Source: a virus (lineage: Duplodnaviria; Heunggongvirae; Uroviricota; Caudoviricetes). From it: 64,000 nt of DNA. The position numbers were made by a program, and so were the translations under genes. The DNA lies in IMG/VR virus record IMGVR_UViG_2639762987_000002. One strand, 5' to 3'. Below the pieces are notes generated by a model. It saw only the letters and a list, made by a program, of their open reading frames with translations. It did no database searches and was not told the origin of the DNA. Each line of letters opens with the position of its first letter. The first letter of the stretch is position 1. Positions 4,364 to 50,054 of this stretch are shown one piece after another.

Positions 4364-4693
4364 ATGTTTGCAAATATCGACATCAACCAAATCAAGAAAA
4401 TGACTCAAAAAGAGTTTGACCAGTTTTATGAGCTGGAAGGTTGGTCTTCCACTCTGATTAATTCAAGATGGGTGCTGGAACTGATGACTCGTGATGACGC
4501 ACCTGCTTTGATGATCAGCGACCTGGGTGAAGATGCTGACTTTATGGATATGAGCGAATTTTGTGTGGACACATACAACCGCAGCCAGAAGTACTACTTC
4601 ACATGCGATAGCGAAAATGACGTGATTTCTAAGGTCTATCTTCACCTCGTCCAGCATTGGGACGTTCAGGAGTTTCTTGAAGTATTCGAGTAA
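4364..4693 (+). CDS. hypothetical early protein (109 aa)
   Basis: ORF; start moved to ATG 4364 after RBS aaggat; the listed 4343 start lies inside the motif-1 palindrome. Confidence 0.55.
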   Translation: MFANIDINQIKKMTQKEFDQFYELEGWSSTLINSRWVLELMTRDDAPALMISDLGEDADFMDMSEFCVDTYNRSQKYYFTCDSENDVISKVYLHLVQHWDVQEFLEVFE

Positions 4694-4846
4694 CCCCAAC
4701 CAAAGCCAGCATTGCTGGCTTAATTTCTCTATAGCCGCAGGGAAGAACCTGCATATAGCTCATGCACCTGATCAATATGCTTTGTAGCCGTTTTCTTACT
4801 GGTATTATTTACGCCATTGAGAAAACAAGTTGTTTACGGAGTTGTG

Positions 4847-5158
4847 ATGAAAAAATCATTGGTTCTTGGTCTGGACAAAGACCAGAAGAGAAAAGAGAAG
4901 CCTGCGCTGGTTGCTCAATTAACTTTGCTGGACATCGTTGCCAATGGAACCTCTATTCGTCTGTTCCGTGAAACAGCGGTGTCTTTCGATAAAAACACCT
5001 TTACTCGTTATGTAATGAATGTTCGTCGCCAGCGTGGAAAAGGCTGGATGGCATATCAAAGAATGTGGCCGGAACATCAGCTCGAACTGGCTTTGATGGA
5101 AGTTAACCGCGTGGCCCAGCAAGAAATTCAGAGAGCATCAGTGATGGCAATAGCCTGA
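4847..5158 (+). CDS. hypothetical early protein (103 aa)
   Basis: ORF; ATG 4847 follows motif-1 and RBS acggag. Confidence 0.55.
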   Translation: MKKSLVLGLDKDQKRKEKPALVAQLTLLDIVANGTSIRLFRETAVSFDKNTFTRYVMNVRRQRGKGWMAYQRMWPEHQLELALMEVNRVAQQEIQRASVMAIA

Positions 5159-10671: not shown

Positions 10672-12231
10672 CTAATCTCGTTTCAGAACTCCAAAATCGA
10701 ATGCTCCATCAATAGGCAATACACCTTCTGCAAAGCCAGGTGTGGTGTCGATGATGTGTTTTCGCTCATAAGAGTGAGACAACAGGTATTTGTTGCTAAT
10801 GTCAATGAAATCAGTGATAAAACACACGTTTGCCTGATTTTTTTTGGCTCGTAAGCCACGACCGACACGCTGCCTCATTTCAACTTCTGCTTTCCCACCA
10901 CCAGCAAGAATGACCGCACCAACGCTTGGCACATCAACACCGACATCCAGAATAGTCGAGCCTATTAAAACATCTATTTCTCCAGACGCTAAACTGTTCA
11001 GCTTTGCTTGCCTTGTCGCCTGGTTAGATTCCCCATAGATGAAGTCAACTCTAAGGCCGGACTCTTTCATCATTTCCATCAGGATTTGCCCGTGGCGTTT
11101 AAGACGAACCAGAGTCATACAATTGAGAGAATGTTGCTTATAGAGCAATGCTTCGCGAACAATGGCCTCGTTACGTCCCAAATTATACACGATCCCCAAC
11201 TGATAAGCCTTTTGGTAGGCGGTGCTCATACCAACTCTAAAATTGAGGTGTTTGTTGGCAAGTTCGGCCTTGATTCTGGCCTCGTCTGGCTTGTAGGCAA
11301 CTTTATGATAAAGAAAGTACGGCTTTGCCAGAATGCCTCGATCAATCAGGTACTTTTCTGTGACTTTAATTTCAATTCGCCCGGCCACCGCCATCAGGCG
11401 CATGTTGGCTTCCGTCGAATCCTTCATGAACGGCGTGGCTGTAAGCGCCAGACGATAGTCTGCGTTCACACATAATCTGGCGATGTCATAGAAATTTGAG
11501 CCTGAAGACTCATGCGCCTCTTCCAGAATAAGAAGAGAGACACTTGAAAGGAAGCGTTTCACCAACTCCCGACGTTTGAGGTGGTAGCTTTTCTTATCTG
11601 GTGTTGCATCGCGTGGTGGTTCTTCGAGGAAACTTGCAAGAGTTTGAACTGTAGCGACGTTGATATGTCGTGATACCTGGAACTCACCCGAGCCAATGAC
11701 TCCAACCTTTTGGTCTTTTAACCACGGTTCGCCATTTTCGGCGCGGTAGTCGATGGATCTCTGGAAGTTTTCGGCCATTTGAAACATCAGAACAGAGCGG
11801 GTTGTTAAAAATAATGTCATTCGACCGATACGTGCAGCTGCTTTGCAGGCAACGTTAGATTTCCCGCCACCAGTAGCGATCTGCGCAATCATCATTCCCT
11901 CTCGAACCAGTGTTTCCACAGTCTGATCCTGATACGCATAATCAGGATTGTATGGGAATGGGTTAACCGCAGGATTTGGTTTACCAAGCGCCGGGGCTTT
12001 GTCTTTGCGGATATGAACACATTTGATGCCCGCCTTGTTCAAGTTCGCCGCTACAGGCTTGGCAAAGCCAGCAGGGAACGAGTTTTTACTCCAGTTGAAC
12101 ATCGTGCTTGTGCCCTTCCAGTCGCCAGTCTCGACTTCGTAGCTCAACATCTGTTGCACCATTTGCTTTACCTTGTCATCTGCGCCAGAAATAAGCGCAT
12201 TAACTGCGTTAGATACAATCCGAACAGTCAT
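10672..12231 (-). CDS. superfamily 2 DNA helicase (519 aa)
   Basis: Walker A TGGGKSN, motif II LILEEAHE (DEAH-like), C-terminal helicase region QRVGRGLR. Confidence 0.8.
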   Translation of the reverse strand: MTVRIVSNAVNALISGADDKVKQMVQQMLSYEVETGDWKGTSTMFNWSKNSFPAGFAKPVAANLNKAGIKCVHIRKDKAPALGKPNPAVNPFPYNPDYAYQDQTVETLVREGMMIAQIATGGGKSNVACKAAARIGRMTLFLTTRSVLMFQMAENFQRSIDYRAENGEPWLKDQKVGVIGSGEFQVSRHINVATVQTLASFLEEPPRDATPDKKSYHLKRRELVKRFLSSVSLLILEEAHESSGSNFYDIARLCVNADYRLALTATPFMKDSTEANMRLMAVAGRIEIKVTEKYLIDRGILAKPYFLYHKVAYKPDEARIKAELANKHLNFRVGMSTAYQKAYQLGIVYNLGRNEAIVREALLYKQHSLNCMTLVRLKRHGQILMEMMKESGLRVDFIYGESNQATRQAKLNSLASGEIDVLIGSTILDVGVDVPSVGAVILAGGGKAEVEMRQRVGRGLRAKKNQANVCFITDFIDISNKYLLSHSYERKHIIDTTPGFAEGVLPIDGAFDFGVLKRD

Positions 12232-12313
12232 AAACCTCTTTCCTTAGTGCCTTTTGTATGTTATTTGGCTATTATAATAAGTAAGTGATTACTTAGTGGA
12301 TTGTAGCAATAAA

Positions 12314-12994
12314 ATGGATGTAAAAATCACGATTTTGCAGGTTGATGTTGCCAACCTTCGCCCGAATACCTGGAACACCAATTCGGTTGGTGCGCAGAAT
12401 TTTGAAAAACTGAAAGGTTCTATCGAAAAATTGGGCTTTTTTAAGCCAATTTTGGCTCGTGAACTTGAAGATGGATTTTTTGAAATCCTCGGCGGCGAAC
12501 ATCGCTGGCGTGCTGCTATTGAGCAAGGAATTTCAACGGTTCCGGTGCTTTCTGTGGGCAAAATTAGCGATGTCGTAGCTAAACAGATGTCACTGGTGGA
12601 CAACGAGCGATACGGTGAAGACGACCAAATCGCATTGCAACGCTTCATTGAAGAAATTCAGTCAGAACTTGACTATCAACTGTCTGAAATCGCCCCGTAT
12701 GACGACGAAATCTCGATGGTTTTAGCAAAAGAGGCGGCAATCGACCTTGAAGCACTGGAGGCGTTGTCTCGTGGTAGTGATGAGCCTGTCGATACCGACA
12801 AACGAGAGAAAACCGAACGTGTGGGTGCGGAACATCAGACCATGCGCTTCAAAGTAACTTTCGATGCGTCAGATCGTGTTGCAGAAACCATAAAAAACAT
12901 CATCAAAGAGCAGGCTATTAACACCGGTAATGAAATGGAGAACGCTGGTGAGGCTCTGGTGTGGCTGGTCGACTACTACAAGGAGCGTATGTAA
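12314..12994 (+). CDS. ParB-like nuclease-domain protein (226 aa)
   Basis: ILGGEHRWRAA matches the ParB/Srx-fold GxxR box; motif-2 palindrome at 12279-12296. Confidence 0.65.
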   Translation: MDVKITILQVDVANLRPNTWNTNSVGAQNFEKLKGSIEKLGFFKPILARELEDGFFEILGGEHRWRAAIEQGISTVPVLSVGKISDVVAKQMSLVDNERYGEDDQIALQRFIEEIQSELDYQLSEIAPYDDEISMVLAKEAAIDLEALEALSRGSDEPVDTDKREKTERVGAEHQTMRFKVTFDASDRVAETIKNIIKEQAINTGNEMENAGEALVWLVDYYKERM

Positions 12995-13662
12995 TGACCA
13001 AAAAGTTTGAAATCGTATATCGCGACCCGGCAGATCTTATTCCCTATGAGATGAATGCCAAAAAGCATGATGAACAGCAGATCCGAGATCTGGCCGCAGC
13101 CATTAAAAAGCGCGGATTTGACCAGCCAATTACGGTCGATAAGAACGACGTAATTATTACTGGCCACGGCCGCCGTGAGGCTGCAATTTTTGCTGGACTT
13201 GAGCGCGTACCGGTTATTGTTCGCGATGATCTCAGTGATGACGAGGTTCGTGCGAAGCGCCTTGAAGATAACCGACTTGCCAGCATTGATTACGATGCAA
13301 TTAAGCTACAGAAAGAGCTTGAGTCGCTCGTTCTGGACGATATCGAGGTTTTCGGCTTTGAAGAGCGTGAGTTGAATGTTCTCGTTGGCAGTATGACAGA
13401 AGAAATGGACACCGACTCGCTAGTTATCGATCTTGGCGAAGAAACTAAACGACAGAAGGATGAACACACCGAGATCAGTCGTGAAGTTGCAGCGGAAGAA
13501 GTACGTGTTGTCGACGTATTGGGCTTTAAAACGCTCCCTGCTGGCTCTGCCATTGTTGTTGGTGATTTGCTTGCCCACATGGAAGAAATGACGGGAGAAA
13601 GCGGGGTAGACGCATTTGTGGCATATGCGGAGAAGATCTCTTCCGGGGAGATGGCTGCATGA
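12994..13662 (+). CDS. ParB-like nuclease-domain protein, second copy (222 aa)
   Basis: ITGHGRREAAIFAG motif; start overlaps the previous stop (TAATG). Confidence 0.65.
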   Translation: MTKKFEIVYRDPADLIPYEMNAKKHDEQQIRDLAAAIKKRGFDQPITVDKNDVIITGHGRREAAIFAGLERVPVIVRDDLSDDEVRAKRLEDNRLASIDYDAIKLQKELESLVLDDIEVFGFEERELNVLVGSMTEEMDTDSLVIDLGEETKRQKDEHTEISREVAAEEVRVVDVLGFKTLPAGSAIVVGDLLAHMEEMTGESGVDAFVAYAEKISSGEMAA

Positions 13663-14324
13663 GCAAATACATCATCAACGTATCGTTTCAGACACGCGTA
13701 AATAAAACCACGCGCACGTTGGAAATCGCTGAGTCGTTCGGGCTTGGCCTGGACGAAAAAGAGTGGACGCTTTACGACAATCTGGAGCTGGAAGTGAAGC
13801 AGGGCGATGTGGTGTACATCACCGGCCAATCCGGTTCCGGCAAATCCGTTGTGCTGCGCGAGTTGCAACGACAGATGAAGGATGAAGGGCTGTCTGTAGC
13901 CTCCATCGATGATTTTACCTTCGATAATGAGGTTAACGTCATCGATCAGTTGGGCAAAACGACCAGTGATGCGCTTGGGTTGTTATCTATGGCTGGTCTG
14001 AACGATGCATATCTGTTTGTTCGCAAGCCTTCTGAAATGTCAGACGGCCAGAAATATCGTCTCAAGATTGCCAAACTGATTGAGTCAGGCGCTAAAGTGT
14101 GGGCTGCTGACGAGTTCGGCGCTGTTCTCGACCGTGTAACCGCTCAGGTTGTGGCGTCTAACCTCCAGCGTGCCGCGCGAAAGGTTGGTGCGACGGTAAT
14201 GGTGGCGACGACTCACGAAGACCTGAAGAACGCGCTGCGCCCGGATATGCAGATCACCAAGCACTACAAAGAACGCGTGAAGGTGGAATATCACAATGGT
14301 AGTCATGATGAGGTCCATTCATGA
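13659..14324 (+). CDS. ABC-type P-loop ATPase (221 aa)
   Basis: Walker A GQSGSGKS, signature-like SDGQKYRL, Walker B VWAADEF, H-loop ATTHED. Confidence 0.7.
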   Translation: MSKYIINVSFQTRVNKTTRTLEIAESFGLGLDEKEWTLYDNLELEVKQGDVVYITGQSGSGKSVVLRELQRQMKDEGLSVASIDDFTFDNEVNVIDQLGKTTSDALGLLSMAGLNDAYLFVRKPSEMSDGQKYRLKIAKLIESGAKVWAADEFGAVLDRVTAQVVASNLQRAARKVGATVMVATTHEDLKNALRPDMQITKHYKERVKVEYHNGSHDEVHS

Positions 14325-15211
14325 CGGACATCATCATTAAACGCTACCGCCCTGAAGAGTTTCCGCGTCATCTGGACTTTCTGGAGCGAATGACTGTTAC
14401 AAAGGGAACTGTAGAGGACTGGCACGCTCTTAAGTCGCTTCACTACAAAACAGACGGCAAACCTTTCGCGCCAACTTACTATCGCTGCGAACTTGATGAC
14501 CGTCTGGTGGGCGTCGTGGTTATGGCTTACCCGAAACTACTGTTGGCACCTCGCCACCGCATGTTTCCTAAGTTGAAACCAACCACTAATACCACCGTGG
14601 CTAACCAGTACTGGGGTCGGTACGTGAATAACAACTTTGCGGTGATCAGTCGCTCAGTTGTGGATACTCAGTATCGTGGCGTAGGCGTCTCTTATCGAAT
14701 GATTAACCTGGTTAGCAGGATGCATGACCGGCCAATCATTGAGATCCAGTCCTCGATGAGCAAATACAATCCCTTCGCCATGAAAGCAGGGTTTAAGTTC
14801 ATCCGCCCTGAGCGACCGAAGAGCTATGAAAGTGCACTGCGTGTATTCCAGCGCCATTTCCGTTCCGACCCGGGTGATAACGAGGCGATCGTCAAAGAGT
14901 TGTTCGCAATGAGCGAGTCTCGTCGTCGCCGTGCACTGCGTGATCTGGTGGCGGACTACCACAAGAACAGTTCCCTGGCAAAAGCTGGGCGGAATCGTGG
15001 CACGACGATTCAGGACATTGCCGACAGTCTGGTGGACGAGGCCAGCATTGTGAAGCTGCTCAAGGACATTCACAACCTGAGCTTTACGTCTCCGTTGTAT
15101 GGTGTGTACCGAAACCCTGACTTTGGCCGTCGACTGCCTGACACGCTGCCACTGCTGGCATTCGACAAACAACCTTTGGATAAACCGTTAGAAATTGCTT
15201 TACCGGCATAA
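14321..15211 (+). CDS. hypothetical protein with GNAT-like acetyltransferase motif (296 aa)
   Basis: RSVVDTQYRGVGVSYRMINLV resembles GNAT motif A; 4-nt overlap with the upstream ATPase gene. Confidence 0.45.
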   Translation: MTDIIIKRYRPEEFPRHLDFLERMTVTKGTVEDWHALKSLHYKTDGKPFAPTYYRCELDDRLVGVVVMAYPKLLLAPRHRMFPKLKPTTNTTVANQYWGRYVNNNFAVISRSVVDTQYRGVGVSYRMINLVSRMHDRPIIEIQSSMSKYNPFAMKAGFKFIRPERPKSYESALRVFQRHFRSDPGDNEAIVKELFAMSESRRRRALRDLVADYHKNSSLAKAGRNRGTTIQDIADSLVDEASIVKLLKDIHNLSFTSPLYGVYRNPDFGRRLPDTLPLLAFDKQPLDKPLEIALPA

Positions 15212-15220
15212 GGATTTGCC

Positions 15221-15487
15221 ATGACGTTAACCGACAAACAAAAGGACATCATCAAAACGCTCAATCTCGGTTATGAGCGAGGTCATCTACTTGATCTGGA
15301 CGAATTGCTTGAAGTTTTGCCGTACAAGACAACCAAGCAAAGTATCCAGTTCTCAATTCGCGCTCTGATAAAAAAGGGGCTGGTGGAGAAAGGGCATACG
15401 CGCCAACGCAGTGACAATCGCTATCACCGCCGGACTCTTGGGTTAACCACTTTAGGTCGAGCCAAAGCGAAGTTACTGGTGATGTAA
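15221..15487 (+). CDS. small basic putative DNA-binding protein (88 aa)
   Basis: ORF with RBS aagga; basic C-terminus. Confidence 0.5.
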   Translation: MTLTDKQKDIIKTLNLGYERGHLLDLDELLEVLPYKTTKQSIQFSIRALIKKGLVEKGHTRQRSDNRYHRRTLGLTTLGRAKAKLLVM

Positions 15488-15511
15488 TCGGTCTGGGAGC
15501 TTATTTAAAGA

Positions 15512-15567
15512 CCTGCTTCTGTATATATAAATAATAAGTAACTTATTAAATATATACGGAAGCAGGC
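15512..15567. repeat. 56-bp near-perfect palindrome, copy A
   Basis: cctgcttctgtatatataaataataagtaacttattaaatatatacggaagcagg; a second copy differing at one position lies at 47759-47813. Confidence 0.85.
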
Positions 15568-15682
15568 TTAGTAAGACATGCCAGACCTAATTAAACACCC
15601 CAGAAAACAAGTTGGTTAGCAGATGCAGTAAACAAGTTGTTTTAGAGCGCATGGACGCGCTCTGTGTGTTTTAGAGGGATCT

Positions 15683-16315
15683 ATGACGGTCGAAAAAGAC
15701 GAGGTAAAAACTCGCCTGACACCAGCGGAGTGGGCCGAAGCTGAAGCCAAATGGACGTCAGGCGAATATACACTCTCAAAGCTGGAGGAAGAGTACGGCA
15801 TTCGTCGTGAAACACTCTCCAGACATTTCAAAAAGCGAGGATTAGAGAAAGGCGCGGACTCTGTTGGGAAGATGGTTCGTGAGTCTCTTAAATCTGACGC
15901 AGAGCTTCGCGCTAAAGCCCGTGCGGAAAAGATAGAAGAACGTCGTACACGTTATGACGGCTGGGCGTATGCGTTGGGGCAGATGGTGATGGTCGAAGTC
16001 ACTACGGCCAAACGTGAGGGTAAGCCTTTAGGGGCGATTGAGGATTCTCTCAAGAGCTTACAGAGAGCCAGTAATACCCTTGCAAAATGCTTTGAAGTTT
16101 CGTCCAAAGCATTGGGCATGGATCATGCGGAAAATGACGAGGAAGAAATTCCGAACCTGGTATTTGGTGAGCTTACGCCTTCCCAGGTGGCGAAATTACG
16201 TCAGGAAGACGACGAGCCTGAAATCATCGATGACGAATTGCTTGAGACGTTGGAAGAAGAAGCTCTAAGCGAATTTGATGCGACAGATGATGGAAGTGAA
16301 GGGGAGGACGAATAA
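15683..16315 (+). CDS. terminase small subunit (210 aa)
   Basis: N-terminal HTH-like EYGIRRETLSRHFKKRG, acidic C-terminus, immediately upstream of the large terminase. Confidence 0.6.
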   Translation: MTVEKDEVKTRLTPAEWAEAEAKWTSGEYTLSKLEEEYGIRRETLSRHFKKRGLEKGADSVGKMVRESLKSDAELRAKARAEKIEERRTRYDGWAYALGQMVMVEVTTAKREGKPLGAIEDSLKSLQRASNTLAKCFEVSSKALGMDHAENDEEEIPNLVFGELTPSQVAKLRQEDDEPEIIDDELLETLEEEALSEFDATDDGSEGEDE

Positions 16316-17571
16316 TGGCAATCCCGTCCTCGCTCAGTCTTGTGCAACTGCATTCTGGACAGATGAAAGTCTTCCAGTCTCCGCATCGATTTAAAGTTGT
16401 TTGTGCTGGTCGACGCTGGGGAAAATCCCGGTTGTCGATCTCCACTATTATTCGTGCGGCGGCAAAGGAAAAAAAGCAAAGGGTCTGGTATGTCGCTCCT
16501 ACTTACCAGATGGCTCGCCAGATTTTGTGGGACGATCTACAGGAAGTTCTGCCTCGTAAGTGGGTTAGGAAAAAGAACGACACCACGATGACAATCGTGT
16601 TGAAGAACGGTTCGGAGATCGCCCTCAAAGGTGCTGATAAGCCTGACACTCTGCGCGGCGTAGCGTTGCATTTTGTAGTGCTTGATGAATTTCAGGATAT
16701 GAAGGCTGACACCTGGTACAAGGTGTTACGACCTACTCTTTCATCGACACGCGGCGGTGCACTGATCATTGGTACGCCAAAAGGCTTCTCGGAATTTCAC
16801 AAACTGTGGACTATAGGCCAGAACGTAGAGCTGCAAAGAAAGGGACAGTGGAAGAGCTGGCAGTTTGTAACTGCCGATTCTCCGTTTGTGCCTACGGCGG
16901 AAATTGAAGCTGCTAAGAACGATATGGACCCGAAATCGTTCGCTCAGGAGTACCTGGCGAGCTTTGAGAACATGTCCGGGCGCGTTTACTACCCGTTCGA
17001 TCGTAACGTGCATGTAAAACCGCTTCAGTTCAACCCTCGGTTGCCTATATGGGTAGGGCAGGACTTCAACATTGACCCGATGTCTTCAGTAATTTTGCAA
17101 CCTCAGCCAAATGGTGAGCTATGGGCAATTGATGAATTGGTGCTCTTTTCCTCTAACACGGCAGAGGTTTGTGATGAGCTTGAGAGACGCTTCTGGCGCT
17201 GGAAATCACAGATAACGGTATTTCCAGATCCGGCAGGTGCTTATCGCCAACATGCTCGCGGGGAGTCTGACGTCGACATATTCAAAGAGAAGGGATTCTT
17301 ACGTGTCGATTATTCGAAAAAGCACCCGCCAATTGCGGATCGTGTTAATGCTGTTAACCGAATGCTGATGACCGCATCTGGAGATATCCGGTTGTATATC
17401 GATCCGAAGTGCAAGCATTTGATTGATTCACTGGAAAAAGTCATCTACAAGCCTGGAACACGAGATATGGATAAGACAGGTGGCATTGAGCATAGTGCAG
17501 ACGCATTGGGCTATCCAGTACATCGTAGGTATCCAGTCAAAAACCGTGTTATTCTTGGTGGTTCTCGATAG
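16315..17571 (+). CDS. terminase large subunit (418 aa)
   Basis: Walker A-like VVCAGRRWGKS and Walker B VVLDEF; position before portal. Confidence 0.75.
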   Translation: MAIPSSLSLVQLHSGQMKVFQSPHRFKVVCAGRRWGKSRLSISTIIRAAAKEKKQRVWYVAPTYQMARQILWDDLQEVLPRKWVRKKNDTTMTIVLKNGSEIALKGADKPDTLRGVALHFVVLDEFQDMKADTWYKVLRPTLSSTRGGALIIGTPKGFSEFHKLWTIGQNVELQRKGQWKSWQFVTADSPFVPTAEIEAAKNDMDPKSFAQEYLASFENMSGRVYYPFDRNVHVKPLQFNPRLPIWVGQDFNIDPMSSVILQPQPNGELWAIDELVLFSSNTAEVCDELERRFWRWKSQITVFPDPAGAYRQHARGESDVDIFKEKGFLRVDYSKKHPPIADRVNAVNRMLMTASGDIRLYIDPKCKHLIDSLEKVIYKPGTRDMDKTGGIEHSADALGYPVHRRYPVKNRVILGGSR

Positions 17572-45799: not shown

Positions 45800-46468
45800 A
45801 TGACCAAGATCTTTGTGGTTGGCGGCACAAAGGGCGGGCCTGGCAAATCCACCGTTGCCCAGCAAATTGCCGTTTGCCTGAAAGTCAAAAAGAAGAAGAA
45901 GGTTTATATCACTGATATAGATATTCAGCGCACGACAACAAGCTGGTGTGAAGACCGTCGACAGAACGAAGACCTTGAGCTGATTCCTTTTGCATACGTT
46001 CAGGATGACATCATTAAGCACCTAAAATCGCTTCAGGGTAGAGCTGAGTTTGTAGTGGTAGATGCTGGTGGCTTCGACTCCGAAATTCAGCGACAAGCGA
46101 TGCTGATGGCTGACGTTATCATTATCCCGCTGCGTCCTAAGCGTCGTGATTTGAAATCTTTACGTGACATCGATCCTATTATCGACAATGTTCGCAATGT
46201 AAACGATAAAGTGAAGGTCCGCGCGGTCATGAACCAGTGCCCGGCTTTGCCATCACAAGTGTCTCGCATTCTGGCGGCTAAAGAGATTGTTGAGACGTTT
46301 GGCATCGAGTCTGCGCCAGTCAATCTATATAACCGCAACGTCTATGATGATGCGGAAGAGTCTGGTCGTTCTATCTTTGAAATGACCGGTAGCGAGCGCG
46401 ACAAAAAGGCGGAAGCCGAGTTTGAAGAATTTGTAGATTATCTGTTGAGTCTGGAGGAAGAAGAATAA
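45800..46468 (+). CDS. parA: ParA/ParF-type partition ATPase (222 aa)
   Basis: Deviant Walker A GGTKGGPGKST; followed by a small RHH protein; motif-1 upstream. Confidence 0.8.
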   Translation: MTKIFVVGGTKGGPGKSTVAQQIAVCLKVKKKKKVYITDIDIQRTTTSWCEDRRQNEDLELIPFAYVQDDIIKHLKSLQGRAEFVVVDAGGFDSEIQRQAMLMADVIIIPLRPKRRDLKSLRDIDPIIDNVRNVNDKVKVRAVMNQCPALPSQVSRILAAKEIVETFGIESAPVNLYNRNVYDDAEESGRSIFEMTGSERDKKAEAEFEEFVDYLLSLEEEE

Positions 46469-48713: not shown

Positions 48714-50054
48714 ATGACCGAACTTTGCCATACAGGACGCGGGCTGTCCGAAGAGTTTGATGAAGATTTCCAGAACAGACTGACGGCATATTTTTGTCGT
48801 GATCACGAGTTTCTTACTCGTGCGGGAGATCTGGTTGTGCCTAGCCAGTTTGCCAATGCGGCCAATGCCATATTGGTTAATATGGTTTCGGGCTATTACC
48901 GTATGTACAAGAGCGCGCCCTCTTCATCTGCAATTCTGGATATGCTTAAGCGTGCGAAACGCGATAAGACTATCCGTGAGGAACTATTCGCCGATGTTGT
49001 TGCTGCGTTTAAGCGCATTCTTGCAGAAAAATTGTCCGATACCTCGTACATGGTTGACCAGGTATCAACCTTCGCAAAAAGTGTAGCGTTTGATGATGCT
49101 CTGATTAAGGCTGCTGAACTGAAAGAGAAAGGCGACTTTCAGGGGGCGATGGCAATCATGGCCAAGGTTCAGCAGATTGGATCGAACGAAGCGACCGGAA
49201 TCTATGACTACTACACCTCCGCAAGTGAGCGATTGAAAGCGCGTGAATATGAGGCTTCAGAGGAGTATGTACCAAACAGTATTACAACTGGACTCCCTCT
49301 TCTCGATAGGTTGCTGTACCAAAAAGGCTGGGCAAAGCGCGAAATGGTGCTCTTCATGGGGTTCGCTAAATCCGGTAAATCGACCGCAATGGGTGAGTTT
49401 TCCATAAACGCAACGCTTGCTGGCTACAATGTTCTGTATCTCTCGCTGGAGGTTCACACCACCATTTTATCCGACCGTTTTGATGCAAGATTGTCGGAGA
49501 CAGAAATGTCCAAGCTGGTGGAACGGCGCGATGAGGTTCATCGTAAGTTGGCAGAGTTGGGAGCCACGAAGGGGATTGGTAGTTTGTGGGTGGTTGAGCG
49601 TCCGTCAGGAAGTATGTCACCGGCAGATCTGGACCGTATGCTTAACAGCATGAAAGCCAACGGCATGGTACCTGACATGGTTGTTGTCGACTACGCAGAT
49701 TTGATGCGTGCCAGTTATGACCTTCGTGATGATCGCGCCAACATTCGTAGTATCTACACCGATTTACGTGCTCTTTATGACAAGCATAACGTTGCTGGGA
49801 TCACGGCATCGCAGACAAACCGTGAAGGTGGCGCGTCAGAAGTTGCCACAATGATGCACGCTGCCGACAACATCGAAAAAGTACGTATTGCTGACCTGGT
49901 AATAACGATCAACAAAACCGAAGAAGAAGAAGCGAAAGGAGAGGCTCGTCTCTACTTTGCCGGTTCACGTAACCAGCAGGGAGGGATCAGCATTCGCGTT
50001 AAACAAAACCTCGAACAAATGCGCTTCATTGAGCGAATCTTAGACGTTACCTAA
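48714..50054 (+). CDS. DnaB-like replicative helicase (446 aa)
   Basis: C-terminal RecA-like core: Walker A GFAKSGKST, Walker B MVVVDYADLM; motif-1 18 nt upstream. Confidence 0.75.
   Translation: MTELCHTGRGLSEEFDEDFQNRLTAYFCRDHEFLTRAGDLVVPSQFANAANAILVNMVSGYYRMYKSAPSSSAILDMLKRAKRDKTIREELFADVVAAFKRILAEKLSDTSYMVDQVSTFAKSVAFDDALIKAAELKEKGDFQGAMAIMAKVQQIGSNEATGIYDYYTSASERLKAREYEASEEYVPNSITTGLPLLDRLLYQKGWAKREMVLFMGFAKSGKSTAMGEFSINATLAGYNVLYLSLEVHTTILSDRFDARLSETEMSKLVERRDEVHRKLAELGATKGIGSLWVVERPSGSMSPADLDRMLNSMKANGMVPDMVVVDYADLMRASYDLRDDRANIRSIYTDLRALYDKHNVAGITASQTNREGGASEVATMMHAADNIEKVRIADLVITINKTEEEEAKGEARLYFAGSRNQQGGISIRVKQNLEQMRFIERILDVT

What the first reader, a model, noticed from the sequence alone, without database searches (positions are those of the whole stretch)
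12314..15211. Operon of two tandem ParB-like nuclease-domain proteins, an ABC-type ATPase and a GNAT-like protein upstream of the terminase
Four translationally coupled genes (stop/start overlaps at 12994, 13659, 14321) sit between the helicase block and TerS. Two paralogous ParB/Srx-fold proteins carry GxxR boxes, one protein has the full ABC ATPase motif set, and one has a GNAT-like motif A. ParB-like proteins near terminases are known in phages, but pairing with an ABC ATPase and a putative acetyltransferase is not a module I can name; it could act in packaging-site recognition, DNA modification or anti-defence.
Basis: partly seen in the sequence, partly recalled or inferred. Interest (0 to 1): 0.6.

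Follow-up and report, generated by a model that had tools for sequence, protein, structure and literature searches.

The report
ParB-linked ATP-driven acyltransferase module beside terminase
This phage-plasmid carries a real, uncharacterised gene module (two ParB-fold proteins plus an ABC ATPase and a GNAT acyltransferase) that recurs next to the DNA-packaging genes of very distant bacterial and archaeal viruses, and most likely adds an acyl group to viral DNA.

Summary
The window is an SSU5-type phage-plasmid, 99.5% identical to Escherichia phage Cyrano. All lie upstream of TerS/TerL.

The ABC ATPase and the GNAT are the two halves of one widespread fused protein family (COG2401-type). Across phages of Proteobacteria, Firmicutes, Actinobacteria and Spirochaetes the order ParB → ABC–GNAT → TerS → TerL → portal recurs. 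In 77 metagenomic loci a ParB-like gene sat directly upstream in 48 of 70 informative cases, and TerL lay within six genes downstream in 46 of 69. In Bathyarchaeia proviruses the fused gene directly follows TerL.

Other copies lie beside or fused to DNA polymerases. Different lineages add formyltransferase, PanD plus CoA-transferase, or ASCH genes right after it.

I found no functional study. The best-supported reading (about 0.4) is a ParB-assisted, ATP-driven GNAT that acylates phage DNA before packaging. The analogues are Mom, ParB–methyltransferase fusions and ParB-dependent thymine dioxygenases. Rivals are a packaging accessory, a protein or small-molecule acyltransferase, and an RNA acetyltransferase. 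Plasmid partition and transport are effectively excluded.

The parts
10672..12231 (-). UvsW/DEAD-type helicase, divergently transcribed from the module. It is a conserved neighbour in the SSU5/nickie lineage only (context, not core).
   Evidence: Pfam ResIII/DEAD/Helicase_C. The same position is kept in L003, L004, nickie and the Rhizobium phage.
12314..12994 (+). ParB1: a canonical-type ParB nucleotide-binding domain protein (GGEHRWRAA box, VDNER). It is an extra paralogue specific to the SSU5/nickie lineage.
   Evidence: ParB_N 3e-13. phrog_723 1e-78. phmmer to Spo0J/ParB/Noc structures over residues 7-154.
12994..13662 (+). ParB2: a ParB domain of the type fused to phage DNA methyltransferases (NAKxH, GHGRR, RLxDN), followed by a small C-terminal helical domain. 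It is the conserved partner of ABC-GNAT.
   Evidence: phrog_930 1e-112 and phrog_498 'DNA methyltransferase' 1e-31. PADLOC MTase_II 3e-17. AF2 pLDDT 80 and Foldseek to ParB-CDP, Noc and KorB. The single ParBs of Streptococcus and Pasteurella phages match ParB2 far better than ParB1.
13659..14324 (+). Soluble ABC-type ATPase with no membrane partner. It corresponds to the N-terminal half of the fused ABC-GNAT family.
   Evidence: ABC_tran 6e-13. Full motif set. 43-50% identical to the N-terminal half of the fused proteins.
14321..15211 (+). GNAT-fold acyltransferase (residues ~20-165, motif A QYRGVG) plus a conserved helical C-terminal domain. It corresponds to the C-terminal half of the fused family.
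15221..15487 (+). 88-aa winged-helix protein, the fifth gene of the operon. Its role is unknown; it may be a DNA-binding factor for the downstream site.
   Evidence: phrog_900 2e-45. Weak LexA, Lrs14 and Sta1 wHTH hits. Conserved and ATGA-coupled to the GNAT gene in L003.
15512..15566 (.). Long AT-centred palindrome between the module and terS. It is a candidate cos/packaging or terminator element.
   Evidence: Arms are 17 nt at 94% and 16 nt at 88% complementarity. As ssDNA, dG is -17.4 kcal/mol with z -7.7. A palindromic architecture, though not the sequence, occupies the same place in L003, L004, nickie and the Rhizobium phage. The SSU5 and Cyrano linear records are cut inside it.
15601..15664 (+). 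Two copies of the promoter-associated motif AGAAAACAAGTTGKTT, followed by a GC hairpin with a T-run, just upstream of terS.
   Evidence: Direct repeat D1. The motif occurs at 9 sites in the window against 0.22 expected. Terminator-like hairpin at 15643-15664.
15683..16315 (+). TerS-like DNA-binding protein (downstream context).
   Evidence: phrog_867 2e-100. Its stop overlaps the TerL start.
16315..17571 (+). Terminase large subunit (downstream context).
   Evidence: Terminase_6N 3e-9 and Terminase_6C. phrog_2 and phrog_10250.

Best explanation
The module is a ParB-assisted, ATP-driven acyltransferase that modifies the phage's own double-stranded DNA after replication, at or just before packaging, so that progeny DNA is protected from host nucleases. 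The proposed steps are these. ParB2, helped in this lineage by the more canonical ParB1, binds nucleotide and DNA and recruits or activates the enzyme on duplex DNA. The ABC ATPase dimerises on ATP and provides the mechanical step, clamping or opening DNA or exposing a base. The GNAT domain then transfers an acyl or aminoacyl group onto an exocyclic amine of a base. The donor would be acetyl-CoA or another common thioester in the SSU5 type, beta-alanyl-CoA where PanD and a CoA-transferase are co-encoded, and possibly an aminoacyl donor where a formyltransferase is co-encoded. What is shown: the domain identities, that ABC and GNAT form one functional unit (they are fused elsewhere), and the conserved linkage to ParB, terminase, DNA polymerases and acyl-group enzymes. 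What is inferred: DNA as the substrate, the role of each partner, the donor, and the anti-restriction purpose.
Against: There is no direct evidence that DNA is the substrate, and I found no report of modified DNA in SSU5-like, nickie-like or other carriers. The similarity to Mom is at generic GNAT-fold level only, with no sequence-level membership. GNATs mostly act on proteins and small molecules. The ABC domain is closest in sequence to transporter nucleotide-binding domains, not to known DNA-binding ABC ATPases. In the archaeal proviruses no ParB was detected and the only consistent neighbour is TerL, which fits a packaging role equally well. The SSU5 type has no accessory enzymes.
Confidence: 0.4

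Rival explanations
1. Packaging accessory. The ParB proteins recognise or organise DNA near the cos/pac region. The ABC-GNAT regulates or assists terminase, for example by acetylating TerS, TerL, portal or a DNA-bound protein, or by remodelling DNA for packaging initiation.
For: Linkage to terminase is tight and recurrent. In the window the module ends 195 nt before terS. TerL lies within six genes downstream in 46 of 69 IMG/VR loci, mostly at +2. In Bathyarchaeia proviruses the fused gene directly follows TerL in 43 of 80 genome loci and 31 of 76 IMG/VR loci (my counts). A conserved palindrome, a candidate cos element, lies next to the module.
Against: The linked TerL proteins belong to at least two different Pfam terminase families (Terminase_6N, and TerL_ATPase with TerL_nuclease), which argues against a specific protein partnership. 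Other family members sit in replication modules or are fused to DNA polymerase, far from terminase. PanD, CoA-transferase, formyltransferase and ASCH neighbours have no obvious role in packaging. Separate TerS candidates are present (phrog_867, DUF5681). Genes upstream of terS are also simply the first late genes, a common site for DNA-modification genes.
Confidence: 0.2
2. A protein or small-molecule acyltransferase used for host takeover or counter-defence. Targets could be a host defence, translation or nucleoid protein, or polyamines. ParB would serve only as a nucleotide-sensing regulator.
Against: No PADLOC or anti-defence family hit for the GNAT. The partnerships with ParB, DNA polymerase and terminase all point to DNA. 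The module is a conserved core of a ~100-120 kb siphovirus lineage rather than a variable accessory gene.
Confidence: 0.2
3. An RNA (tRNA or rRNA) acetyltransferase analogous to TmcA/NAT10, in which an ATPase drives a GNAT to make N4-acetylcytidine.
For: To my knowledge, TmcA is the only characterised ATPase-coupled GNAT acting on a nucleic acid. ASCH domain genes follow the module in Streptococcus and Oenococcus phages; ASCH is, to my knowledge, an RNA-binding and N4-acetylcytidine amidohydrolase fold. tRNA genes lie about 2 kb upstream of the module in phage nickie.
Against: None of TmcA's defining domains are present: the ATPase here is ABC-type, not helicase-type, and no TmcA or DUF1726 hit was found. 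The ParB partner and the polymerase and terminase contexts are DNA-related.
Confidence: 0.08
4. The annotations taken at face value: plasmid partition proteins (ParB) and an ABC transporter.
For: Database product names say so. The element is a phage-plasmid.
Against: No ParA and no membrane protein is in the operon. A separate ParA-like gene with a small downstream gene exists elsewhere (window 45800-46468, 91% identical to SSU5_033). The same module is present in ~110-kb phages isolated as free virions, with no plasmid state reported in the records (nickie, Rhizobium and Stenotrophomonas phages), and in small prophages, always beside terminase.
Confidence: 0.02

Closest known systems
COG2401 / PHROG 293, 886 and 11143 'ABC-type ATPase fused to a predicted acetyltransferase domain' (uncharacterised)
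   Same: The window's ABC and GNAT proteins are clear homologues of the two halves, in the same order and with the same conserved motifs.
   Different: Here the protein is split into two translationally coupled genes. The GNAT carries an extra insertion and a ~130-aa helical C-terminal domain that the short (360-400 aa) fused forms lack. The family has a label but no known function.
Phage Mu Mom (GNAT-fold enzyme that glycylates adenine N6 in dsDNA using Gly-tRNA)
   Different: There is no sequence-level relationship. Mom works alone, with no ATPase and no ParB. The donor and acceptor of the present enzyme are unknown.
ParB-dependent phage thymine dioxygenases (5mYOX176/ParB176) and phage ParB-methyltransferase fusions
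   Same: A ParB-fold protein without a ParA partner is paired with a DNA-modifying enzyme and is often near terminase genes. The 5mYOX-associated ParBs are described as having a nucleotide-binding domain plus a C-terminal domain and no obvious HTH, and the ParB2 model looks similar. ParB2 is homologous to the ParB part of the methyltransferase fusions.
   Different: The catalytic partner is an ABC ATPase with a GNAT, not a dioxygenase or methyltransferase. Two ParB paralogues are present here.
TmcA / NAT10 (ATPase-coupled GNAT forming N4-acetylcytidine in RNA)
   Same: The logic is an NTPase domain coupled to a GNAT acting on a nucleic-acid base (own knowledge).
   Different: The ATPase class differs (helicase-type against ABC). 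The target there is RNA. TmcA has no ParB partner and no phage packaging context. No sequence membership was found.
ParABS partition systems
   Same: ParB1 aligns with Spo0J, ParB and Noc nucleotide-binding domains, including the GxxR box.
   Different: There is no adjacent ParA, and a separate ParA-like gene exists elsewhere. The module also occurs in phages isolated as free virions, with no plasmid state recorded in their records.

Membership tests
ParB/Srx superfamily (PF02195 ParB_N) | ParB N-terminal domain scoring above the Pfam gathering threshold | tested here: met
   ParB1 scores 50.0 bits and ParB2 35.2 bits against a cut-off of 26.3. The ParB2 model matches ParB-CDP, Noc and KorB by Foldseek at E 4e-7. 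ParB1 matches Spo0J by phmmer at 3e-9.
ParB/Srx superfamily (PF02195 ParB_N) | GxxR nucleotide-binding box and the ENLQR-like asparagine | tested here: met
   ParB1 has GGEHRWRAA and VDNER. ParB2 has GHGRREAA and EDNR. G57, H58, G59, R60, D92 and N93 are invariant in 37 ParB2 homologues. The catalytic Glu is replaced by His in ParB2.
ParB/Srx superfamily (PF02195 ParB_N) | NTP binding or hydrolysis, or nuclease activity | not testable with these tools
   This requires biochemistry. The 'nuclease' label in annotations is untested.
ParABS partition system | Adjacent ParA ATPase and a role in plasmid segregation | tested here: not met
   There is no ParA in the operon. The ParA-like gene is about 30 kb away (window 45800-46468, 91% identical to SSU5_033). 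The module is conserved in phages isolated as free virions, with no plasmid state recorded.
ABC ATPase (PF00005) | Walker A, signature LSGGQ-like motif, Walker B with Glu, H-loop | tested here: met
   ABC_tran scores 50.1 bits against 25. The motifs are GQSGSGKS, MSDGQ, VWAADE and TTH.
ABC transporter | Partner transmembrane domain or permease | tested here: not met
   No membrane protein lies in or next to the operon. Fused relatives carry a GNAT, not a permease.
GNAT superfamily | Sequence match above a Pfam GNAT family threshold | tested here: not met
   The best hit is Acetyltransf_10 at 14.4 bits against a cut-off of 23.6. More distant fused relatives do pass individual GNAT models, for example P0237 with Acetyltransf_1 at 25.6 bits against 20.7.
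GNAT superfamily | GNAT fold with the Q/R-x-x-G-x-G/A acyl-CoA pyrophosphate-binding loop | tested here: met
Fused ABC-GNAT family (COG2401-type) | Homology of both halves to the fused protein, in the order ABC then GNAT | tested here: met
   The profile of the GNAT protein retrieves ABC_tran-containing proteins with the match in their C-terminal half. The window ABC is 43-50% identical and the GNAT 25-31% identical to the fused loci. The motifs are shared.
Mom family (DNA adenine-N6 acyl/carbamoylmethyl transferase) | Sequence-level homology to Mom; stand-alone enzyme with an HTH-like insertion | tested here: not met
   No Mom family appeared among the Pfam or PHROG hits. Only fold-level similarity was seen.
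Mom family (DNA adenine-N6 acyl/carbamoylmethyl transferase) | Modified base in DNA | not testable with these tools
   This needs nucleoside mass spectrometry or sequencing kinetics.
TmcA/NAT10 | DUF1726 plus helicase-type ATPase plus GNAT plus tRNA-binding domain | tested here: not met
   No such domains appeared in the Pfam or NCBIfam scans. The ATPase is ABC-type.
Known anti-phage defence or counter-defence families (PADLOC) | Significant match of the catalytic protein | tested here: not met
   The GNAT has no hits. The ParBs hit only the ParB part of MTase_II models. The ABC gives generic P-loop hits.

The most novel reading that the evidence does not exclude
ParB plus ABC-GNAT is a previously unrecognised and very widespread class of viral DNA-modification machinery. 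It would be an ATP-dependent DNA acyltransferase that writes N-acyl marks (acetyl, beta-alanyl or formyl-aminoacyl, depending on the accessory genes) on bases of duplex DNA as it is readied for packaging. It is used by tailed viruses of both bacteria and archaea. That would add a new chemical family of DNA modifications and a new job for ABC ATPases.
Probability: 0.33. Interest if true: 0.88.

Novelty: new variant of a known kind. Interest (0 to 1): 0.68.

Why it matters
If the module acylates DNA, it would be a second and mechanistically different way, after Mom, for a GNAT enzyme to write on DNA. It would be the first such system to use an ABC ATPase, and a further case of ParB-fold proteins acting as activators of DNA-modifying enzymes. 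The family is large: 897 profile hits among cluster representatives, more than 580 relatives of the short form in IMG/VR, and multiple copies per Bathyarchaeia genome. It sits in clinically relevant SSU5-type phage-plasmids of E. coli, Klebsiella and Salmonella. An answer would therefore re-annotate thousands of genes now named 'ABC transporter', 'ParB partition protein' and 'hypothetical'. It could also explain restriction evasion or sequencing and cloning anomalies in these phages, and could yield new DNA-labelling enzymes. If instead it is a packaging factor, it would be a new, widely conserved component of the terminase machinery. The question can be tested directly with existing phages (SSU5, Cyrano, nickie, Gordonia Jace and Axumite, Leptospira LE4).

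Tried and rejected
- Plasmid partition was rejected. There is no ParA in the operon, a separate ParA-like locus exists, and the module is present in phages isolated as free virions, with no plasmid state reported in the records.
- ABC transporter was rejected. There is no permease, and the fusion partner elsewhere is a GNAT.
- A known defence or anti-defence system: the PADLOC scan gave nothing specific.
- A sequence search of the GNAT protein against PDB gave only noise (AlkD, E about 1). NCBIfam had no family for it.
- Literature searches for COG2401, for 'ABC-type ATPase fused', and for SSU5, ParB, ABC and terminase combinations found no functional study. The LE3/LE4 and DLP3 papers only list annotations.
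- The first IMG/VR scan with the close-homologue alignment A1 returned only near-identical SSU5-type loci and was uninformative for diversity.
It was repeated with a 12-sequence alignment.
- The afdb50 fold library was unavailable.
- I looked for ParB in the archaeal provirus group with phmmer and an HMM and found none. The small genes c2 and c9 upstream of TerL have no Pfam hit; c5 was not scanned.
- I considered whether the frequent contig ends just after the fused gene mark physical genome termini. They may equally be provirus boundaries or assembly breaks at a variable region, so I did not use this as evidence.
- Iyer et al. 2013 (PMC3763556) could not be read.
Full report
**What the window is.** The region 12296-15500 is 99.5% identical to Escherichia phage Cyrano, about 99% identical to other E. 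coli SSU5-type phage-plasmids, 85% to Salmonella phage SSU5 and 81% to Klebsiella relatives. The window is therefore an SSU5-type phage-plasmid, a ~105-kb siphovirus that also replicates as a plasmid.

**The observation.**
- ParB1 (12314-12994) and ParB2 (12994-13662) both pass the Pfam ParB_N threshold.
- The 13659-14324 product passes ABC_tran and has Walker A, signature, Walker B-Glu and H-loop motifs.
- ParB1 and ParB2 are 33% identical over the ParB domain.

Three corrections are needed. The helicase at 10672-12231 is divergent on the other strand. A fifth gene, an 88-aa winged-helix protein (15221-15487, phrog_900), belongs to the operon. A structured 195-nt spacer separates it from the TerS-like gene (15683) and TerL (16315).

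**ABC ATPase and GNAT are one unit.**
- A profile of 37 GNAT homologues, which share 38 invariant residues, finds 897 proteins among 1.84 billion cluster representatives.
- Many of these are 450-500 aa with the match in the C-terminal half. Pfam shows ABC_tran in their N-terminal half.
- The alignment of 39 such fusions shows the window's motifs in both halves: FGLG...GDxVYITGxSGSGKS, LSDGQKYR, DEF..LDR and ATTH, then FHY, RVVxHPKYRGxGLG, NPF.EKAG and Y.W.NP.
- The window ABC protein is 43-50% identical to their N-terminal halves.
- A shorter fused form (360-400 aa) in many cultured phages also matches the fusion HMM across both halves.
- Databases label this family 'ABC-type ATPase fused to a predicted acetyltransferase' (COG2401; PHROGs 293, 886, 11143). 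I found no study of it.

**Conservation within the lineage.** The order helicase(-) | ParB, ParB, ABC, (0-3 variable small genes), GNAT, ~88-aa protein, TerS-like, TerL, portal is kept in several relatives:
- an integrated copy on a 3.3-Mb contig and an Ectothiorhodospira contig whose proteins are only 33-62% identical;
- Pseudomonas phage nickie and Rhizobium phages;
- Stenotrophomonas and Xanthomonas phages of 105-120 kb also carry the ABC and GNAT genes, though I did not inspect their gene order.

These were isolated as free phages and their records do not mention a plasmid state. SSU5 also has a separate ParA-like gene followed by a small gene, whose window counterpart at 45800-46468 is 91% identical. 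The two ParB proteins are therefore not the partition system.

**Conservation far beyond the lineage.** ParB-like, then ABC-GNAT, then small gene(s), then TerL, then portal is found in the following phages:

| Phage | Arrangement |
|---|---|
| Streptococcus phiNIH1.1 | p24 ParB, p25 ABC, an unannotated GNAT ORF, ASCH, DUF5681, TerL |
| Oenococcus vB_OeS_unk162 | ParB-like gene (annotated 'DNA modification methylase'), ABC, GNAT, ASCH; record ends there, terminase not inspected |
| Gordonia Axumite | genes 1-4 at the genome end, gene 4 being terminase |
| Gordonia Jace | gp85 ParB, gp86 ABC-GNAT; terS about 3 kb downstream |
| Arthrobacter EastWest | gp74 'DNA binding protein' (not tested), gp75 ABC-GNAT; no terminase in the stretch inspected |
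| Leptospira LE4 | gp14 ParB-like, gp15 ABC-GNAT, three small genes, TerL, portal |
| Pasteurella Pmp13 | ParB, ABC-GNAT, TerS, TerL, portal |

An IMG/VR scan with the short form found more than 582 relatives. In the 77 best loci that contain the gene, a ParB-like gene is immediately upstream on the same strand in 48 of 70 informative loci and within three genes in 51 of 70. The ORFs usually overlap. TerL lies within six genes downstream in 46 of 69, most often at +2. The TerL proteins belong to at least two Pfam terminase families. The single ParB of these phages is of the ParB2 type: phmmer gives 2e-26 and 6e-20 against ParB2, but 5e-9 and 3e-8 against ParB1.

**Archaeal viruses.** The long fused form is abundant in Bathyarchaeia MAGs, often several copies per genome. 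It sits inside proviruses as the last gene of the structural operon. It directly follows TerL in 43 of 80 genome loci and 31 of 76 IMG/VR loci (my counts from the gene-order strings; TerL was identified). No ParB was detected there.

**Other contexts.** Some copies lie in replication modules:
- between primase and helicase in Nonlabens P12024S;
- next to DNA polymerases in Enterococcus 9184 and Thomasclavelia TR-TP1;
- after DnaB and DHH in L086;
- fused to family-B DNA polymerase in P0176 and P0204.

Different accessory enzymes follow the gene directly in different lineages:
- Formyl_trans_N in Gordonia Axumite (where it is mis-annotated as a tRNA methyltransferase), Burkholderia phiE255, Pseudomonas Komp_PAO1_1 and Porphyromonas phages. 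In phiE255 and Komp_PAO1_1 the pair lies after the tail-fibre genes.
- Aspartate decarboxylase (PanD) plus a CoA-transferase III-like protein in Gordonia Jace and IMG/VR L291 and L333, and PanD alone in L315.
- ASCH in Streptococcus and Oenococcus phages.

PanD plus a CoA-transferase suggests beta-alanyl-CoA as an acyl donor. This is my inference.

**The ParB proteins.** ParB1 aligns with Spo0J, ParB and Noc structures over residues 7-154 and keeps GGEHRWRAA and VDNER. ParB2 matches phrog_498 (the ParB part of a 633-position 'DNA methyltransferase' profile) at 1e-31 and PADLOC MTase_II at 3e-17. Its invariant motifs are NAKxH, GHGRR and RLxDN. Its model (pLDDT 80) has the nucleotide-binding domain, a poorly defined helical middle and a confident C-terminal three-helix domain. 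Foldseek puts ParB-CDP, Noc and KorB on top.

**Relevant literature.**
- O'Toole et al. 2026 show that phage ParB-fold proteins, with a nucleotide-binding domain plus a C-terminal domain and no obvious DNA-binding domain, are required activators of a thymine dioxygenase on dsDNA. Such clusters co-occur with terminases in 19% of cases (PMC13229309).
- Kaljevic et al. 2025 show that orphan ParB-CTPase folds are common on mobile elements. In phages they are frequently fused to DNA methyltransferases, and a bacterial ParB-acetyltransferase fusion binds GTP (PMC12704722).
- Stenotrophomonas phage DLP3 carries glycosyltransferase, hypothetical, ParB, hypothetical, TerL, and its DNA resists 15 restriction enzymes (PMC7326821).

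**Interpretation.** The facts that any explanation must cover are:
- an obligatory ABC-GNAT unit;
- a ParB2-type partner of the kind otherwise attached to DNA methyltransferases;
- placement at the head of the packaging operon or beside replication enzymes;
- lineage-specific enzymes that make or tailor acyl groups;
- a presence across viruses of bacteria and archaea.

A post-replicative DNA acyltransferase, ParB-activated and ATP-driven, covers all of these and has precedents for each element. I give it about 0.4.

A packaging accessory role explains the terminase linkage and the archaeal arrangement. It does not explain the polymerase fusions, the replication-module copies, the accessory enzymes or the mix of terminase families. 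I give it about 0.2. A protein or small-molecule acyltransferase for host takeover remains possible because that is what most GNATs do (about 0.2). A TmcA-like RNA acetyltransferase is less likely (about 0.08). Partition or transport is essentially excluded.

Nothing here demonstrates the substrate. Nucleoside mass spectrometry of virion DNA and heterologous co-expression are the decisive tests.

**The spacer between the module and terS.** It holds a 55-nt AT-centred palindrome at 15512-15566. As single-stranded DNA its dG is -17.4 kcal/mol with z -7.7. The palindromic architecture, though not the sequence, recurs at the same place in four distant relatives. The SSU5 and Cyrano linear records are cut inside it. 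It is a candidate cos or terminator element, unproven.

After it come two copies of AGAAAACAAGTTGKTT and a GC hairpin with a T-run. That 13-16-nt palindromic motif occurs at nine sites in the window against 0.22 expected. In most cases it lies just downstream of a -10-like box and 10-35 nt before a start codon. terS-terL therefore probably has its own regulated promoter, and the ParB-to-wHTH genes form a separate unit. No such motif precedes ParB1.

**Novelty.** The instance is an ordinary member of a large family that has database labels but no known function. The module as a whole (ParB + ABC-GNAT at the terminase) is, as far as my searches reach, undescribed. I rate it a new variant of a known kind, namely ParB-assisted phage DNA-modification modules. 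There is a substantial chance that it is a new class of DNA-modifying machinery.

Noticed in passing
window 1664, 1715, 3155, 4339, 4823, 15605, 15630, 45752, 48682: The palindromic motif (AG)AAAACAAGTTGTTT occurs at 9 sites against 0.22 expected by chance. Most copies lie just after a -10-like box and 10-35 nt before an ORF start, including the ParA-like gene, the ORF at 48714 (probably the counterpart of SSU5's DnaB-like helicase; not checked) and terS. It looks like a shared promoter or operator element of the phage-plasmid. None precedes ParB1.
   Followed up: partly
window 15512-15566; L002 end and L345 start (SSU5), L001 end (Cyrano): A strong AT-centred palindrome (z -7.7) lies between the module and terS. 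A comparable palindromic architecture sits at the same place in L003, L004, nickie and a Rhizobium phage. The deposited linear SSU5 and Cyrano records are cut inside it, so it may be the cos site. The physical ends were not verified.
   Followed up: partly
window 45800-46468: A ParA-like ATPase (91% identical to SSU5_033) has a motif copy 35 nt upstream. This is the likely real partition locus, separate from the two ParB genes of the finding.
   Followed up: partly
L088-L163 (IMG/VR) and L180-L259 (Bathyarchaeia MAGs): The fused ABC-GNAT gene is the last gene of a tail...TerS?-TerL operon in Bathyarchaeia proviruses, often with several copies per MAG. In 23 of 76 IMG/VR loci the contig ends within 100 nt after the gene, and downstream DNA is otherwise variable and mostly on the opposite strand. 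This could be a provirus boundary, a genome end or an assembly break.
   Followed up: partly
L169 about 4440-4930 (Streptococcus phage phiNIH1.1, record about 15.9-16.4 kb): An unannotated GNAT ORF (YHY..., VILPDYQGVGLG) lies in the 'empty' gap between the annotated ABC protein p25 and the ASCH protein p26. It matches the GNAT half of the fusion HMM.
   Followed up: yes
L170 1805-2452 (Gordonia phage Axumite gene 3); L178 4154-4984 (Enterococcus phage 9184 ORF024): Two probable mis-annotations. Axumite gp3, annotated 'tRNA-methyltransferase', hits Formyl_trans_N. Enterococcus ORF024, annotated 'DNA polymerase', contains the GNAT half of the ABC-GNAT family, probably named after PolB-ABC-GNAT fusion proteins.
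   Followed up: yes
P0154, P0165, P0176, P0204: Unusual architectures occur in the family: ABC-GNAT with a C-terminal TFIIB repeat, an ABC domain interrupted by an intein with a LAGLIDADG endonuclease, and family-B DNA polymerase fused N-terminally to ABC-GNAT.
   Followed up: no
L004 6961-7999; L168 5043-5898; L002 7994-8248; L167 5646-5981: The junction between the ABC and GNAT genes is a hotspot for small inserted genes in relatives: Phage_gp49_66, RyR domain, DUF2829 (from memory, the family of the Tad2 anti-Thoeris protein) and unknowns. The window has none.
   Followed up: no
L174 4601-5712; L291, L333, L315: PanD (aspartate decarboxylase) and a truncated CoA-transferase III-like gene recur immediately after ABC-GNAT in unrelated phages. 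This implies a beta-alanine or CoA-thioester branch of the system.
   Followed up: partly
L179 42549-43652 (SSU5_081; outside the window region studied): SSU5's 'thymidylate synthase' is 367 aa, long for ThyA. It sits with a nucleotide pyrophosphohydrolase, DHFR and an AAA ATPase. It is worth checking whether it is a dUMP or dCMP hydroxymethylase-type enzyme, which would bear on DNA modification in this lineage.
   Followed up: no
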